A stretch of 64,000 bases of DNA from Simkania sp. GTDB taxonomy: Bacteria > Chlamydiota > Chlamydiia > Chlamydiales > Rhabdochlamydiaceae. The first letter of the stretch is position 1. Each line of letters opens with the position of its first letter. The notes under the pieces were generated by a model. It saw nothing but the letters and a program-made list of their open reading frames with translations. It searched no databases and was not told the DNA's origin. Both the position numbers and the translations under genes were made by a program. Positions 3,162 through 51,852 of the stretch are shown piece by piece. The DNA is taken from positions 4,723-68,722 of the forward strand of contig JAGXTH010000021.1 in NCBI GenBank assembly GCA_018333475.1. The letters are read 5' to 3'.

Positions 3162-3691
3162 ATAAGTGGTTTATATCCGACACGCATTTCTCTCACACCA
3201 ATATCATTCGCTATACAGGGCGACCCTTCCAGTCCGTCCATGAGATGGACGAACAGCTGATTGCAAACTGGAATGCCCATATTGTTCCTACTGATACAGT
3301 GTTCTTTTTGGGTGATTTCGGTCTAGGCACGACTGATTTTCTTACAGATCTTTGTTCTCGACTTCATGGGAATAAGATTTGCGTTCGAGGTAATCACGAC
3401 GGAACTCCTGCAAAAATGCATAAAATCGGCTTCTCGCTTGTGCTAGAATCTGCCTTCATCAAAGTGGGTCGGCATCAAGTCGAGCTCATCCATATCCCCA
3501 GCCATCCAGCCCCTTCTCATTTTCAACTTCACGGCCATGTCCACGAGAAGCGTCCAAATAAACTGATTGGCAGGCAACTCAATCTTTCCGTTGAGGTCTG
3601 GGATTACAAGCCCGTTCCCGAAAAAACCATCATTGCTTTGCTTGATCGTGCAGATCCGATCCTTGAACCCCAGTCTCTTAATGTGCTCTGA
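3158..3691 (+). CDS. Calcineurin-like metallophosphoesterase
   Basis: Metal-binding motifs in canonical order: SDTHFSH, LGDFG, RGNHDG, HGHVH. Confidence 0.75.
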   Translation: MNKWFISDTHFSHTNIIRYTGRPFQSVHEMDEQLIANWNAHIVPTDTVFFLGDFGLGTTDFLTDLCSRLHGNKICVRGNHDGTPAKMHKIGFSLVLESAFIKVGRHQVELIHIPSHPAPSHFQLHGHVHEKRPNKLIGRQLNLSVEVWDYKPVPEKTIIALLDRADPILEPQSLNVL

Positions 3692-3708
3692 CTGTTCAAT
3701 ATTTTTAG

Positions 3709-3730
3709 CTGTTCAATATATATTGAACAG
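3709..3730. repeat. Perfect 22-bp palindrome CTGTTCAATATATATTGAACAG, with extra TGTTCA/TGAACA copies at 3692-3701 and 3741-3747
   Basis: Read directly. Lies between convergent genes (3158-3691 plus strand, 3793-4578 minus strand). Could be an AT-rich bidirectional terminator or a protein-binding site. Confidence 0.6.
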
Positions 3731-3792
3731 TTGAATTAGATGAACAGACCCTTGTTTAGACATTCGATAGTCAAGGTTTCAGCTCGGAGTTC

Positions 3793-43061: not shown

Positions 43062-44269
43062 TACCCCTTTTTCTGCATTTCATCGCACTGCATTTTTCCC
43101 TAAAGGTACCCGCTGTATTTTTTTATGCATCTACACGAATGATGCTGGCTGCTCTTACGGCTGGGTGTTTCACTATTTTTTTTGGACCAAGGTTCATTCA
43201 GAAATTGTATGCGTTAAAAATGGGGCAATCCATTCGTGTAGCTGATTGTCCGGGATTGGCCCAGTTACATGAGAAGAAAAAGGATACTCCCACGATGGGA
43301 GGTATTCTTATTCTCTCTTCCATGTTGACGAGTCTTATCTTATGGATGGATTTAAGCTCGGTGTTTACGGTGATCTTGGCTATTACGACGATTTGGCTGG
43401 GATTGATCGGCGGCACGGATGATTATTTAAAGCTCAAACATAAAAATTCTAAGGGATTGAGTGCTAGACGTAAAATGATCTTCCAGACGTTATTTGCAGT
43501 GTTTCTTTCTTTATACCTATACTGCCCGATGGTGACTAAAACGGTCGCTTTTGAAGATCTTTTTGTGTCCCCAACGGCCAAGGAACACGTGATTGAAGAT
43601 GCGCAGGATGTAATGCAGCAGCGCTCTTTACAGCAATATAGTGGGCAGTATTACTTTCCCTTCCTAAAAGACCCTCTTTTTGTGTTGAGTGGTACAGGAT
43701 TATTTGTTGCCTTCGTCATTACTTGGTTTACTGTAACCGGGGCTTCAAATGCGGTCAATTTGACAGATGGTCTGGATGGCCTTGCAGCAGGATGTCTTGT
43801 CATGGTCAGTGTTGTGTTGGGCATTTTCGGGTTTTTTTCTAACAATATTGAGATGGCGCGCTATCTCAATATTCTTTACATAGAAGGCAGTGGAGAGATC
43901 GCAGTGTATCTATTTGCCATGGCAGGGGCTTGCTTAGGATTTCTCTGGTATAACGGTTATCCTGCGCAAGTGATCATGGGAGATACGGGGTCTTTAGCCC
44001 TTGGAGGAATTCTAGGGGTTTCTGCAGTATTGATGCGGCGAGAGTTATTATTAGCGCTCATTGGTGGTATCTTTGTTATTGAGACACTCTCTGTGATTTT
44101 ACAAGTGGGTAGCTATAAGCTCCGTAATCGTAAACGTATTTTTCTTTGTACTCCTATTCATCACCATTTTGAATATAAAGGGTGGCCTGAGACGAAAGTG
44201 GTCATCCGTTTTTGGATCGTGGGCTTTCTTTTTGTCATGATCGGTCTTGCCTCTCTTAAGTTTCAGTAA
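43058..44269 (+). CDS. mraY: Phospho-N-acetylmuramoyl-pentapeptide transferase
   Basis: Polytopic membrane protein with GTDDYLKL, NAVNLTDGLDGLA and PIHHHFE motifs. Confidence 0.93.
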   Translation: MIPLFLHFIALHFSLKVPAVFFYASTRMMLAALTAGCFTIFFGPRFIQKLYALKMGQSIRVADCPGLAQLHEKKKDTPTMGGILILSSMLTSLILWMDLSSVFTVILAITTIWLGLIGGTDDYLKLKHKNSKGLSARRKMIFQTLFAVFLSLYLYCPMVTKTVAFEDLFVSPTAKEHVIEDAQDVMQQRSLQQYSGQYYFPFLKDPLFVLSGTGLFVAFVITWFTVTGASNAVNLTDGLDGLAAGCLVMVSVVLGIFGFFSNNIEMARYLNILYIEGSGEIAVYLFAMAGACLGFLWYNGYPAQVIMGDTGSLALGGILGVSAVLMRRELLLALIGGIFVIETLSVILQVGSYKLRNRKRIFLCTPIHHHFEYKGWPETKVVIRFWIVGFLFVMIGLASLKFQ

Positions 44270-44434
44270 CCTCTTTTGAGACTAAGGCTTTGTCGATTTT
44301 GGGGGGTATTTTGATCGTTTTTCGGCTCTTTTTTTAGGGTAATATACGGATGTTGATATAACCCAAAAAAAAAAGAGTTGAAAAGAGTCTTAAAAGAACC
44401 CGAAAATCGACGGAAGCTTAATTTCGAAAGAGGT
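44270..44434. repeat. Degenerate copy of the about 150-bp palindromic intergenic element (MITE/REP-like family; perfect copy at 50821-50970)
   Basis: Imperfect long inverted repeat centred near 44350. Its arms align at roughly 80 percent by eye to the arms of the 50821-50970 element (CTCTTTCGAAAyTAAGCTTC..TCGATTTT..GGGTAATAT). Confidence 0.65.
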
Positions 44435-44448
44435 CTAGTAAGAAAACT

Positions 44449-50068: not shown

Positions 50069-50815
50069 TTGATAAAGGTAATAAAAATAATCCGTTCTTA
50101 TGGAATTGATGCGCCTAATGTCGTTCGGAATCTTTTCTTGTTTTCTCTAGTTGCGATGATTTTTGTGGCAGTATCATTTCAAATTGACAAGGCATTTTGG
50201 TTTTGGGCTGTGTTTCTTTATTCGAGTTGTCTGGCTCTTTGCTTATTCTGTGCAGGATGTTGGATGCTCTACGGCATCGTGATTGTCAAGCCTAAGATCG
50301 TTGCACGGTTAATTGATGAGCTGGATTTAAAGGGAAATGAAAAAATCCTTGATGTTGGATGTGGGAGAGGGATATTTCTCATAGAAATGGCAAAACACCT
50401 TCCTAATGGACAGGCTTGTGCCATCGATCTTTGGTTTTTGAAGGATCAATCCGGGAATGCGATCGAAAAGGCATTAGCTAACGCTCGAGCTGAGCAGTTA
50501 AACGATCGAATTGAAGTTCAAACAGCAGATATGCAGTCTCTTCCTTATTCTAATGAGACATTTGACGTGGTAGTTTCTAGTCTTTCCATTCATAACATTC
50601 CAAGTATTCACGGGAGAAATAAAGCTTTAGGTGAGATTCTGCGTGTTTTAAAACGTGGAGGAAGGTTTGTAGTCCTCGATATTCAACATGTGAAACAGTA
50701 TGCAGCATTCATCAACCAGACAAAAGAGGCTGAGGTCACTTGCTCTCCCTGTATCTATCGTTATTGTCCTCCGTTGAGAATCCTAAGGGGAAGAAAAAAT
50801 ACAGATAGTCTTTAA
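50069..50815 (+). CDS. Class I SAM-dependent methyltransferase with N-terminal TM segments
   Basis: ILDVGCGRGIF (motif I) and VVSSLSIHN / GGRFVVLD blocks. Non-ATG start as listed, so the exact start is uncertain. Confidence 0.7.
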   Translation: MIKVIKIIRSYGIDAPNVVRNLFLFSLVAMIFVAVSFQIDKAFWFWAVFLYSSCLALCLFCAGCWMLYGIVIVKPKIVARLIDELDLKGNEKILDVGCGRGIFLIEMAKHLPNGQACAIDLWFLKDQSGNAIEKALANARAEQLNDRIEVQTADMQSLPYSNETFDVVVSSLSIHNIPSIHGRNKALGEILRVLKRGGRFVVLDIQHVKQYAAFINQTKEAEVTCSPCIYRYCPPLRILRGRKNTDSL

Positions 50816-50820
50816 ATATT

Positions 50821-50970
50821 AGAGCTCTTTCGAAACTAAGCTTCATTCGATTTTGAGGTGTTTTTGAGTCTCTTTTCCTTGGGGTAATATTAACATTCGT
50901 ATATTACCCCAAGGAAAAGAGACTCAAAAACACCTCAAAATCGAATGAAGCTTAGTTTCGAAAGAGCTCT
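50821..50970. repeat. Perfect long palindrome: 70-bp arms (50821-50890 / 50901-50970), 10-nt loop; MITE/REP-like intergenic element
   Basis: I reverse-complemented the left arm base by base and it equals the right arm exactly. The element ends 3 nt before the ATG at 50974. Confidence 0.95.
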
Positions 50971-50973
50971 ATT

Positions 50974-51852
50974 ATGAAAAAATCACACCCCTCAAAAGTC
51001 TCCTTTATCAAAGCAGCCTATTGGATTACGGGTTCTGTGATAGCAGTAGCCACCATTGGATATACTTTAGTGAATAAAATTGTGACTGCAAGACGGGATC
51101 TAGACCAGGATCCAAGACAACGAATTGTAAGAATTATCCAGACAGGGCCTCAAAAAGAAGCGTTAAGCACTTTATATCTTTCAGAACTCATGCAGCTTTC
51201 CATAGATCGTCCCTTTACAATGCGTTCTTTTAATCTAAAACTTGCAGAAAAACGGTTGCGTAGTTCTCCAGTTGTGCAGGATGTAAAAATTTTTTTCGAT
51301 GGTCCAGGAACTGTTGCGGTGGATTATGAAGTAAGACAGCCCTCTGCATGGCTGTATGATTTTGTTAATATAGGTGTTGATATCAGTGGCGTCCCTTTTC
51401 CTATTTATCCATTTTACTCCCCCAAAAAACTGCCAGAGATTTACTTAGGGGAACCTTTACAGCTCATATGGAATCGGCCGATTGATCACCCAAAAATGCA
51501 GCTTAGTTTGTCTCTATTAGAGATGTTAGCTCCTGCGCCTTTTTTGATTAAAAGAATCGATGTTGGAGGGGCATTTGCAGAAAGCTATGGGAAAAAACAG
51601 ATTGTGCTTATCATCGAGGAACAATTCAAAATCTCTTATCAGGACAGGGAAATTCTATGTATTCTGCCTAGAATCCTTCGATTGAGCACAAAGGAATATC
51701 GGCAGGAACTTGGAAACTATCTCGTATTACGAGATGAGTTGTCATCATCCTTTGATCCGACACTAGCGGATTTCGATAGAGAAGAAAGAATTGCGCGTTT
51801 GCCTGAACAAGTCATCGATTTGAGGATAGCAGGCATGGCTTTTTTGAAATAA
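50974..51852 (+). CDS. FtsQ-like cell-division protein (single TM plus POTRA-like region)
   Basis: N-terminal TM helix and about 290 aa. Sits downstream of murC where ftsQ lies in dcw clusters. Sequence-level identification is weak. Confidence 0.5.
   Translation: MKKSHPSKVSFIKAAYWITGSVIAVATIGYTLVNKIVTARRDLDQDPRQRIVRIIQTGPQKEALSTLYLSELMQLSIDRPFTMRSFNLKLAEKRLRSSPVVQDVKIFFDGPGTVAVDYEVRQPSAWLYDFVNIGVDISGVPFPIYPFYSPKKLPEIYLGEPLQLIWNRPIDHPKMQLSLSLLEMLAPAPFLIKRIDVGGAFAESYGKKQIVLIIEEQFKISYQDREILCILPRILRLSTKEYRQELGNYLVLRDELSSSFDPTLADFDREERIARLPEQVIDLRIAGMAFLK

What the first reader, a model, noticed from the sequence alone, without database searches (positions are those of the whole stretch)
50821..50970. 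Perfect 150-bp palindrome (70-bp arms) occluding the ribosome-binding region of the ftsQ-like gene
The arms 50821-50890 and 50901-50970 are exact reverse complements (verified base by base), with a 10-nt loop. A perfect 70-bp stem is far longer than a terminator. It suggests a recently inserted MITE-like element or a cruciform-forming site.

Its right arm ends 3 nt before the ATG at 50974 and contains the only SD-like purine run (GAAAGAG). Read-through transcripts from murC or the methyltransferase would therefore bury the translation-initiation region in a very stable hairpin. It may also act as an RNase III target or as a strong terminator separating the dcw genes.
Basis: seen in the sequence. 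Interest (0 to 1): 0.65.

Follow-up and report, generated by a model that had tools for sequence, protein, structure and literature searches.

The report
Palindromic mini-transposon upstream of chlamydial ftsQ
The perfect 150-bp palindrome is real and is one copy of a small non-coding mobile element (a MITE) that occurs many times in the genomes of environmental chlamydiae; it landed 3 bases before the start codon of a cell-division gene, so the kind of element is ordinary even though I found no description of this family.

Summary
Arms 50820-50890 and 50901-50971 are exact reverse complements (71/71) around a 10-nt loop. The predicted RNA hairpin is -127 kcal/mol (z = -22). The Logan unitig graph of the source metagenome (flanks about 33x, arm 61x, loop 24x) argues against a chimeric join.

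The palindrome is a miniature inverted-repeat transposable element. The element spans 50821-50970 and is flanked by a 3-bp direct duplication, ATT/ATT. It belongs to a family of about 170-bp elements found at more than 130 places, almost all in Chlamydiota MAGs. The family has variable termini, a conserved core, a conserved apex (GGGGTAATAT-loop-ATATTACCCC) and 3-bp target duplications (TTA/TAA or AAT/ATT; 44 of 69 identical against 0 of 69 in a shifted control).

A second, degenerate copy lies at 44268-44436, between mraY and murD. Canonical members are imperfect palindromes with two different arms. This copy is one of about 13% "homo-armed" variants, in which one arm, including a 10-nt deletion, has been copied onto the other.

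No parent transposase, Rfam family or published description was found. The proposed effects on ftsQ (SD-like run and AUG buried in the stem, opened by upstream translation or RNase III) are inferred, not tested. It is not a canonical terminator.

Verdict: a new member of a known kind, of moderate interest.

The parts
50821..50970 (.). The element itself: a 150-bp non-coding palindromic MITE, a homo-armed (A/A), shortened member of an approximately 170-bp family.
   Evidence: Family HMM hit with E = 2.7e-25; alignment A1; boundaries set by the flanking ATT/ATT duplication and by comparison with L006 and L009.
50818..50820 (.). Left copy of the 3-bp target-site duplication (ATT).
   Evidence: Direct repeat ATT...ATT. 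Because ATT is not its own reverse complement, it is not part of the palindrome. 13 of 17 elements with AGAC/AGAGCTC-type ends carry identical AAT or ATT on both sides, against 0 of 17 in a shifted control.
50971..50973 (.). Right copy of the 3-bp target-site duplication (ATT), immediately before the ATG.
50821..50890 (+). Left arm: terminal inverted repeat AGAGCTCTTTCGAAACTAAG, an A-type core and a shortened sub-apical stem.
50891..50900 (+). Loop TAACATTCGT (family consensus CAACNTTCGT). Most other copies in the same metagenome have C at 50891.
50901..50970 (+). Right arm, the exact reverse complement of the left arm. It carries the SD-like GAAAGAG at 50960-50966.
50881..50910 (.). Conserved apex module GGGGTAATAT-loop-ATATTACCCC, nearly invariant across the family.
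   Evidence: Invariant and near-invariant columns in A1; the pattern used for the collection scans.
50069..50815 (+). Upstream SAM-dependent methyltransferase gene, with stop codon TAA at 50813-50815, 5 nt before the perfect stem. The closest relatives lack this gene.
   Evidence: Pfam Methyltransf_31/25/11. In L131 and L132, murC overlaps ftsQ directly.
50974..51852 (+). ftsQ-like gene of 292 aa (N-terminal TM segment). Homologues carry PF08478 or are named FtsQ.
44268..44436 (.). Second, degenerate copy of the same family, between the mraY stop codon and the murD start codon, with a probable AGT/AGT duplication.
   Evidence: nhmmer E = 7.6e-32; sequence; flanking genes.

Best explanation
The palindrome is a non-autonomous transposable element (MITE) of a multi-copy family that is widespread in environmental Chlamydiota.

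Shown:
- It has terminal inverted repeats, no coding capacity and a 3-bp direct duplication (ATT) at both ends.
- It has many relatives of the same modular architecture in the same metagenome and in more than 100 loci of other chlamydial MAGs.
- The corresponding junction in the two closest relatives (L131 and L132) is empty.

Inferred:
- It was inserted by a DDE-type transposase acting in trans, which makes a 3-bp staggered cut at an A/T-rich trinucleotide. The largest subfamily, with GAGNCTGTC ends and TTA/TAA duplications, looks like IS5-family (IS1031 group) or PIF-Harbinger 'Tourist' behaviour.
- Insertion was into the 5-nt spacer between the methyltransferase stop codon and the ftsQ-like start codon.
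- Canonical family members are imperfect palindromes with two different arms (A and B). In this copy one arm, including a 10-nt deletion that L009 carries on only one arm, was copied onto the other. The most likely route is intramolecular template switching or gene conversion within the hairpin, which made the palindrome perfect.

Inferred consequence: in read-through dcw mRNA the 71-bp stem sequesters the only SD-like run and the first two bases of the AUG. Expression of ftsQ then probably depends on melting of the stem base by ribosomes terminating at the methyltransferase stop codon 5 nt upstream (translational coupling), on RNase III cleavage of the long duplex, or on both. The element is more likely tolerated than selected.
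For: - Reality of the palindrome; unitig depths of 33, 61, 24 and 33; identical sequence in an ENA contig and a JGI contig.
- Multi-copy: 26 Logan contigs of the same run match at 80% or more, several at depth 31-36 like this genome. L006 and L009, from the same JGI metagenome, have the same termini. A second copy lies in the window.
- Family size: 137 HMM places in about 1 Mb of fetched loci, and at least 10 loci each on three contigs or chromosomes of 1.9-2.2 Mb.
- Target duplications: 31 of 52 (TTA 21, TAA 7) and 13 of 17 (AAT 8, ATT 4) identical 3-mers, against 0 in shifted controls. The duplications are non-palindromic, so they are true direct repeats.
- Empty and independently filled sites: L131 and L132 have murC overlapping ftsQ (ATGA) with no element there. 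L133 has a different subfamily member in the murC-ftsQ gap. L132 has one between murG and murC.
- Arm copying: the window arms are 70/70 identical to each other but only 64/70 identical to the nearest paralogous arm. L009 has one 70-nt arm and one 80-nt arm. 13 of 97 full-length elements are homo-armed, 7 A/A and 6 B/B.
- Template-switch correction of quasipalindromes is an established mechanism (PMC7202029).
- No orientation bias relative to flanking genes (10:10 and 11:9), which fits a selfish DNA element rather than a strand-specific RNA.
- Hairpin occlusion of the SD-like run and the AUG.
Against: - No autonomous element or transposase with matching termini was found in the fetched loci, so the transposition mechanism is inferred from the duplications only.
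- The empty orthologous sites belong to relatives that also lack the methyltransferase gene, so there is no exact before-and-after pair for this insertion.
- The window subfamily duplicates AWT rather than TWA, so assignment to one transposase type is uncertain.
- The family is unusual for a MITE because the interior is conserved and the termini vary. 51 of 65 stem pairs show compensatory changes, so a function of the folded form, as DNA or RNA, is not excluded.
- All assemblies may derive from one sample, and no raw or long reads could be laid.
- The effects on ftsQ expression are entirely untested.
Confidence: 0.85

Rival explanations
1. The palindrome is an assembly artefact: a palindromic chimeric join or snap-back created by library preparation or by the de Bruijn assembler.
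For: The three assemblies that carry it (ENA, JGI and Logan) may all come from the same sample. The Logan contig breaks inside the arm. Only contigs, not raw reads, could be laid.
Against: The unitig graph is clean and quantitative. The arm has twice the flank depth (61 against 33), and a separate loop unitig at depth 24 joins the arm to itself. No alternative path or joint was seen. The sequence has the full architecture, apex motif, loop consensus and target duplication of a family seen in more than 130 independent places. That family includes perfect or homo-armed copies on a 1.9-Mb contig (L086, L123 and L129).
Confidence: 0.03
2. The element is a selected cis-regulatory RNA structure of the dcw operon, for example an RNase III processing site, an attenuator or an mRNA stabiliser. 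In this reading the family spreads or is retained because of that function, rather than being a merely tolerated selfish element.
For: The hairpin is very stable and includes the SD-like run and part of the AUG. Family members sit in dcw intergenic spacers in four cases (window twice, L132 and L133). 11-12 of 97 elements bridge a stop codon and the next start codon within 15 nt or less on each side. The core and apex are conserved, and 51 of 65 pairs show compensatory changes. Correia and ERIC elements are processed by RNases and modulate mRNA levels (PMC10969869).
Against: There is no orientation bias of the asymmetric arms or of the loop relative to transcription. Elements occur in tandem, convergent and divergent contexts alike. 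Pairing is almost purely Watson-Crick with few G-U pairs, as expected for a DNA-level palindrome. Target duplications show transposition. The closest relatives do without the element. There is no U-tract, so it is not a canonical terminator. No RNA data are available.
Confidence: 0.1
3. The element is a DNA-level cruciform or protein-binding site with a chromosomal role, such as a recombination, replication or nucleoid-protein site, rather than a transposon.
For: Perfect long palindromes can extrude cruciforms (DNA fold -85.7 kcal/mol). The apex GGGGTAATAT/ATATTACCCC and the repeated CGATTTTCG motifs are nearly invariant and look like protein-binding sites. The loop occurs in both orientations relative to the arms (52 against 16).
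Against: The same features are expected for transposase-binding sites. Copies are dispersed, flanked by target duplications and absent from orthologous sites. Copy numbers and subfamily termini differ between genomes.
Confidence: 0.02

Closest known systems
Correia repeat-enclosed elements (CREE) of Neisseria
   Same: Both are non-coding MITEs of about 100-200 bp with inverted-repeat ends. Both are multi-copy and lie mostly in intergenic regions close to gene starts. They are co-transcribed with neighbours, their paired ends form RNase III substrates, and they can invert (PMC10969869). This is the best functional analogy for what a copy in front of ftsQ may do.
   Different: The terminal sequences are unrelated. 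Correia duplicates TA (own knowledge), whereas this family duplicates 3 bp. Correia pairs mainly at its ends, whereas this family is a near full-length foldback with a conserved interior and variable ends. The host phylum is different. No promoter-like site was found in this copy.
Tourist-like MITEs (mPing) of PIF/Harbinger transposons and the related bacterial IS5 family (IS1031 group)
   Same: The 3-bp target duplication is TTA or TAA (PMC4561436), as in the largest subfamily here (28 of 31 identical duplications). That subfamily's termini begin GAG/GGG...CTGT. From my own memory of ISfinder, the IS1031 group has a 3-bp direct repeat and ends in GAG.
   Different: No cognate transposase was found. 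The window's own subfamily duplicates AAT/ATT next to AGAGCTC ends, and a third subfamily (GAACCTATC) duplicates 2 bp. The terminal similarity is recalled from memory and was not tested against ISfinder.
Rickettsia palindromic elements (RPE) and enterobacterial ERIC/IRU
   Same: Both are palindromic repeats of about 100-170 bp that are dispersed in the genomes of (mostly) intracellular or host-associated bacteria, have a long predicted hairpin, and have no recognisable transposase.
   Different: RPEs are typically inserted in frame inside protein-coding genes and lack clear target duplications (own knowledge). Here only 7 of 97 copies lie within long ORFs, and duplications are clear. There is no sequence similarity and no Rfam match.
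Quasipalindrome correction by template switching (E. coli and yeast)
   Same: This process converts imperfect inverted repeats into perfect ones by copying one arm from the other (PMC7202029). It explains the homo-armed, perfect state of this copy, including the deletion shared by both arms.
   Different: It is a mutational process, not an element family. Here it would act over about 25-40 nt of arm, including a 10-nt indel, which is longer than the classic hotspots.

Membership tests
MITE (prokaryotic non-autonomous inverted-repeat element) | Short length and no coding capacity | tested here: met
   The element is 150 bp (family about 160-177 bp) and holds no ORF.
MITE (prokaryotic non-autonomous inverted-repeat element) | Terminal inverted repeats | tested here: met
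   AGAGCTCTTTCGAAACTAAG and its complement at the two ends. 13-14 of 14 terminal bases pair in nearly all 97 full-length copies.
MITE (prokaryotic non-autonomous inverted-repeat element) | Direct target-site duplication | tested here: met
   ATT/ATT at this copy. In the family, 44 of 69 copies carry identical 3-mers, against 0 of 69 in a shifted control.
MITE (prokaryotic non-autonomous inverted-repeat element) | Many dispersed copies within a genome | tested here: met
   Two copies in the window, further copies on other contigs of the same metagenome at the same depth, and at least 10 loci on each of three contigs or chromosomes of 1.9-2.2 Mb.
MITE (prokaryotic non-autonomous inverted-repeat element) | Presence/absence polymorphism at orthologous sites | tested here: inconclusive
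   The closest relatives (71% and 57% FtsQ identity) have an empty murC-ftsQ junction, but they also lack the methyltransferase gene. A third relative has an independent insertion from another subfamily. No strain-level comparison was available.
MITE (prokaryotic non-autonomous inverted-repeat element) | A cognate autonomous IS with the same ends | tested here: inconclusive
   None was found in about 1 Mb of fetched loci.
IS5 (IS1031 group) / PIF-Harbinger-derived 'Tourist-like' MITE | 3-bp duplication of TNA/TWA | tested here: inconclusive
   Met for the GAGNC-ended subfamily (TTA 21, TAA 7). The window's subfamily duplicates 3 bp, but of the form AWT.
IS5 (IS1031 group) / PIF-Harbinger-derived 'Tourist-like' MITE | Ends matching those of a DDE transposase-encoding parent | not testable with these tools
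   No ISfinder library was available and no parent was found. The 'GAG ends' resemblance is from memory only.
Correia element (CREE) | Correia-type 26-nt terminal repeats, TA duplication, Neisseria host | tested here: not met
   The termini are different, the duplication is 3 bp, and the hosts are Chlamydiota.
Rickettsia palindromic element (RPE) | In-frame insertion within protein-coding genes, without target duplication | tested here: not met
   This copy is intergenic. Only 7 of 97 copies lie within long ORFs, and duplications are present.
Intrinsic (Rho-independent) terminator | Short GC-rich stem followed by a U-tract | tested here: not met
   The stem is 71 bp at 37% GC and is followed by AUUAUGAAAAAA; on the other strand it is followed by AUAUUUAAAG. 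The scan found no terminator at the element.
Any curated RNA family (Rfam 15) | Match at the gathering score | tested here: not met
   Only sub-threshold generic hairpin (miRNA precursor) matches in the window. Nothing at canonical family members.

The most novel reading that the evidence does not exclude
The window copy belongs to a MITE family, spread across the Chlamydiota, for which I found no published description. Its folded form may matter. The family has an almost invariant core and apex, conserved arm asymmetry (bulges), both loop orientations ('flip' and 'flop') and recurrent arm-to-arm homogenisation. It also has a habit of landing exactly between a stop codon and the next start codon. 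In such junctions the foldback would bring stop and start back together, so that only a ribosome terminating on the upstream gene (or RNase III) unlocks the downstream start. That would make it a mobile module that preserves or enforces translational coupling, here placing the ftsQ-like gene under control of translation of an acquired methyltransferase gene.
Probability: 0.15. Interest if true: 0.6.

Novelty: new member of a known kind. Interest (0 to 1): 0.4.

Why it matters
For annotation, the perfect palindrome should be labelled as a repeat or mobile element, not as a terminator or an assembly error. The same family explains many contig breaks in chlamydial MAGs, because several copies sit at contig ends.

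For biology, environmental chlamydiae carry an abundant foldback MITE family that neither the 2024 review of prokaryotic MITEs nor my literature searches mention. It repeatedly inserts within the tightly packed dcw cluster. Its 3-bp TTA/TAA duplications resemble those of IS5/Harbinger-type transposons.

The family also offers natural material for studying how long palindromes are tolerated, homogenised and inverted in bacteria. It could further show whether a hairpin placed between a stop and a start codon maintains translational coupling.

If the element merely sits there, the finding is ordinary.

Tried and rejected
- A search of the window for the two arm halves with up to 3 mismatches found only the element itself. 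Single-copy status was rejected only after laying Logan contigs at 80% likeness and running an HMM search.
- Laying contigs at 100% likeness to find the conserved core was uninformative.
- Rfam gave only generic sub-threshold hairpin hits.
- PLSDB plasmids gave no match.
- Two candidate pairs of inverted termini 0.9-1.2 kb apart (L064 and L108) enclose ordinary genes, not transposases. An all-against-all BLAST of the loci showed no IS-like repeats.
- The seven alphaproteobacterial (Enterousia/RGIG) hits are orthologous loci that share a short hairpin with the apex motif. Raoultella, Pseudobutyrivibrio, Dyadobacter, Zobellia and similar hits have arms of only 10-17 nt. All of these were set aside as unrelated.
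- A search for RNA-seq runs covering the window locus or two named chlamydial loci found nothing.
- A cluster look-up gave no organism names for the closest FtsQ homologues.
- A test for orientation bias relative to transcription was negative.
- The promoter scan found nothing inside the element.
- The claim of spread into Verrucomicrobiota was dropped. One MAG labelled 'VER' is Rhabdochlamydiaceae by NCBI taxonomy. One MAG labelled 'Verrucomicrobiae' encodes a chlamydia-type FtsQ.

Full report
**1. The observation**

The sequence at 50821-50970 is as described. The two 70-nt arms are exact reverse complements. The perfect pairing extends one more base on each side (50820/50971), giving 71-nt arms around the 10-nt loop TAACATTCGT. 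After one mismatch, three further pairs (50816-50818 with 50973-50975) draw the A and U of the ATG at 50974 into the stem.

The predicted hairpin is -126.8 kcal/mol as RNA (z = -22) and -85.7 kcal/mol as DNA (z = -24). None of 200 shuffles came close to either value. Only three inverted repeats of at least 24 nt within 400 nt exist in the whole window, and the other two are 29-30 nt at 73-76%.

**2. Is it an artefact?**

The window comes from an uncultured organism. The identical locus stands in an ENA contig and a JGI contig, and in a Logan contig that starts inside the right arm.

Laying Logan's unitigs of the source run gives this picture:
- left flank at depth 32.9, ending 30 nt into the arm;
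- a 71-nt arm unitig at depth 61.3, twice the flank depth;
- a 70-nt unitig at depth 23.6 that carries the loop plus 30 nt of arm on each side;
- right flank at depth 33.4.

This is what a real flank-arm-loop-arm'-flank path gives at k = 31, and no alternative joint was seen. The assemblies may share one sample, and raw reads were not available, so a small residual doubt remains. The family evidence below makes an artefact very unlikely.

**3. It is not single-copy**

Exact or 3-mismatch searches find only the element itself in the window. At 80% likeness, however, 26 Logan contigs of the same run match parts of the arm, several at depth 31-36 like this genome. Their matches end at about 50818, which marks the element boundary.

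The innermost stem looked best conserved, so I scanned for TGGGGTAATAT-N(8-12)-ATATTACCCCA in JGI metagenomes. This gave 10 loci, two of them on other contigs of the same metagenome, L006 and L009. I then scanned for GGGGTAATAT-N(6-14)-ATATTACCCC in the GTDB species genomes.

Apart from a few short chance hairpins, the hits are MAGs of Rhabdochlamydiaceae, Parachlamydiaceae, Simkaniaceae and unclassified Chlamydiae or Chlamydiales, plus MAGs labelled Verrucomicrobia(e). At least some of the Verrucomicrobia labels are doubtful. 'Ca. Acheromyda' (isolate ACE_VER1) is Rhabdochlamydiaceae in NCBI taxonomy. The 'Verrucomicrobiae' contig CAVWWT010000004.1 encodes a chlamydia-type FtsQ-like protein. 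I therefore describe the family as Chlamydiota-wide.

An HMM built from these elements finds 137 places in about 1 Mb of fetched DNA. One is a second, degenerate copy in the window itself at 44268-44436, between mraY and murD.

**4. Anatomy of the family**

A canonical member is about 170 bp long. From the outside in, it consists of:
- a 3-bp (in one subfamily 2-bp) duplication of the target;
- a terminal inverted repeat of about 25 nt that differs between subfamilies (GAGACTGTC..., AGACCTCTTGCGTAACTAAGG, GAACCTATCTCAGTAAAA, GAGGTAGCTCGCAAAACTCAGG, AGAAGCTGTCTTAAAACTCAG, and the window's AGAGCTCTTTCGAAACTAAG);
- a conserved core that contains two CGATTTTCG motifs per arm;
- a variable but always complementary sub-apical stem of about 10 bp;
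- a nearly invariant apex, GGGGTAATAT - loop CAACNTTCGT - ATATTACCCC.

The two core arms differ at fixed places. Arm A reads ...GGGTTCTTTTGAGCC... and arm B reads ...GGGATTATTTTGGCC..., and there is one extra T. The canonical hairpin therefore has conserved internal loops and about 8-12 mismatches per 81-nt arm.

RNAalifold on 86 copies predicts 65 pairs, 51 of them with compensatory changes and few G-U pairs. With arms oriented A to B, the loop reads CAAC...CGT in 52 copies and the reverse complement in 16, so both 'flip' and 'flop' isomers exist, even within one genome.

**5. Evidence for transposition**

- Among elements with GAGNC-type ends, 31 of 52 have identical trinucleotides on both sides (TTA 21, TAA 7).
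- Among elements with AGAC/AGAGCTC-type ends, 13 of 17 do (AAT 8, ATT 4).
- A control shifted by 3 nt gives 0 of 69.
- Elements with GAACC ends have 2-bp duplications in 10 of 19.

TTA...TTA and ATT...ATT are not palindromic, so they are true direct duplications and not extensions of the stem. For the window copy, the element is 50821-50970 with ATT at 50818-20 and 50971-3. L009 (AAT/AAT as fetched, which reads ATT/ATT on the other strand) and L006 (AAT/AAT) agree.

By a crude ORF-based count (ORFs of at least 100 aa), 7 of 97 full-length copies lie inside long ORFs. 31 abut a stop codon within -6 to +5 nt, which fits TAA/TTA targets. 22 have an outward-pointing start within 20 nt. 11-12 sit exactly between a stop codon and the next start codon.

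**6. The locus in relatives**

The ftsQ-like protein has chlamydial homologues. Some carry PF08478 or are named FtsQ, and named hits are Rhabdochlamydiaceae and Simkaniaceae.

In the two closest relatives examined (71% and 57% identity), murC overlaps ftsQ by ATGA, and there is neither a methyltransferase gene nor an element at that junction. L132, however, has a family element between murG and murC. A third relative (60% identity) has an independent insertion of a GAGACTGT-type member in its murC-ftsQ gap.

In the window lineage, a SAM-methyltransferase gene (50069-50815) was acquired first. The element then entered the 5-nt spacer, TAA-ATATT-ATG.

**7. Why this copy is perfect**

The window copy has two A-type arms, each lacking 10 nt next to the sub-apical stem (alignment A1 shows the gap as 12-14 columns). 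L009, from the same metagenome, has one such 70-nt arm (64/70 identical to the window arm, with no gaps) and one full 80-nt arm. L006 is perfect over its inner 55 nt only.

Overall, 13 of 97 copies are homo-armed: 7 A/A and 6 B/B. Some of these lie on a 1.9-Mb contig (L086, L123 and L129).

The arms here are 70/70 identical, while the nearest paralogous arm differs at 6 of 70. If the arms had diverged independently to that degree, identity of all 70 positions would be expected with probability of about 0.002 (my arithmetic: 0.914^70). The simplest explanation is that one arm was copied onto the other, by template switching or gene conversion within the foldback. This process is documented for quasipalindromes (PMC7202029). 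A very recent transposition from a perfect master copy is the alternative, but no second identical copy exists in the metagenome.

**8. What it does here**

None of this could be tested, because no RNA runs exist for this or related loci.

From sequence alone:
- In a read-through transcript the stem holds the only SD-like run (GAAAGAG, 50960-66) and the first two bases of the AUG.
- There is no U-tract on either strand, and the scan finds no terminator or promoter in the element.
- Arm and loop orientation show no bias relative to flanking genes (10:10 and 11:9). This argues against a strand-specific RNA role and for a selfish DNA element.

The methyltransferase stop codon lies 5 nt before the perfect stem, and the ftsQ AUG lies 3 nt after it. 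A ribosome terminating at that stop should therefore melt the base of the stem and free the start region. This follows from the known reach of the ribosome's mRNA channel and from classical translational coupling.

RNase III cleavage of a 71-bp duplex, as shown for Correia elements (PMC10969869), is the other obvious route to expression. I rate these consequences as plausible but unproven.

**9. Comparison with what is known**

The element meets the defining features of a MITE: small size, no coding capacity, inverted ends, target duplication and many copies. No parent IS was found.

The TTA/TAA 3-bp duplications of the main subfamily match Tourist/PIF-Harbinger behaviour (PMC4561436). From memory, they also match the IS1031 group of the IS5 family. 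The window's subfamily duplicates AWT instead.

The element is not a Correia element, an RPE, a REP, an ERIC, an intrinsic terminator or any Rfam family.

A 2024 review of prokaryotic MITEs does not mention Chlamydiae or Verrucomicrobia. Searches pairing Rhabdochlamydia, Parachlamydiaceae or Chlamydiae with MITE terms found no description. This is absence of evidence within the held library only.

**10. Verdict**

The MITE interpretation is right. 'Recent', 'terminator' and the regulatory consequences are not established. The element is a new member of a known kind, with some uncommon features: a conserved interior with variable ends, flip and flop loop isomers, arm homogenisation, and a stop/start-junction habit. 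These features make the family worth describing, but the window copy itself is most likely a tolerated insertion.

Noticed in passing
window 44268-44436: A second, degenerate copy of the same element family (apex decayed to AGGGTAATAT...ATATAACCC) fills the whole spacer between the mraY stop codon (44267-44269) and the murD start codon (44449). It has a probable AGT/AGT duplication. The mraY stop codon is formed partly by the first bases of the element.
   Followed up: partly
window 50069-50815, compared with L131:2990-3010 and L132:2990-3010: The SAM-dependent methyltransferase gene between murC and the ftsQ-like gene is absent from the two closest relatives examined (71% and 57% FtsQ identity), where murC and ftsQ overlap by ATGA. 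It therefore looks like a lineage-specific gene insertion into the dcw cluster.
   Followed up: partly
L133:2794-2966 and L132:1462-1638: Other subfamilies of the same element have inserted independently into dcw spacers of related chlamydiae: the murC-ftsQ gap in L133 and the murG-murC gap in L132. L133 also carries a short remnant of an element end just downstream (TAGACTGTCTC).
   Followed up: partly
family-wide, for example L065:6084-6257 against L067:758-930 (both on OY970369.1): The 10-11-nt loop occurs in both orientations relative to the asymmetric A and B arms (52 against 16 of the classifiable copies). This is a flip/flop isomerism, as expected from inversion between the perfectly paired apex arms or from a hairpin intermediate.
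   Followed up: partly
family-wide (97 full-length copies in L004-L133): About a third of copies abut a stop codon within a few bases, and the commonest duplications are TTA and TAA. The element may therefore often target the stop codon itself and so land just after genes without disrupting them.
   Followed up: partly
L004:1530-1603, L007:6263-6336, L013:1-108: A different long palindrome shares only the apex module (AAAATGGGGTAATAT-TTCATTCA-ATATTACCCCATTTT). Its arms are unrelated (ACGCAAAATTTTGGCCCATTGGGCTGCGT...). Fragments of that arm type also flank family copies in L076 and L128. This hints at modular or chimeric elements.
   Followed up: no
L070:1014-1188: A full-length, perfectly palindromic (82-nt arms) family copy lies near the end of a 269-kb contig of a MAG labelled Acidimicrobiaceae. 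This is either a binning or labelling error or a transfer outside the Chlamydiota.
   Followed up: no
L024, L037, L046, L082, L090, L109, L118: Orthologous loci of gut Alphaproteobacteria (Ca. Enterousia/RGIG MAGs) share a short hairpin, GGGGTAATAT-TGGTGT-ATATTACCCC (loop TGGTGT or its reverse complement, depending on the strand fetched), with 10-nt arms only. It is conserved in position and appears unrelated to the chlamydial element.
   Followed up: no
window 3673-3749: A cluster of imperfect inverted and direct repeats is built on the motif (C)TGTTCAATAT / ATATTGAACAG (29-30-nt arms, 73-76% complementary). It may be a binding-site array.
   Followed up: no
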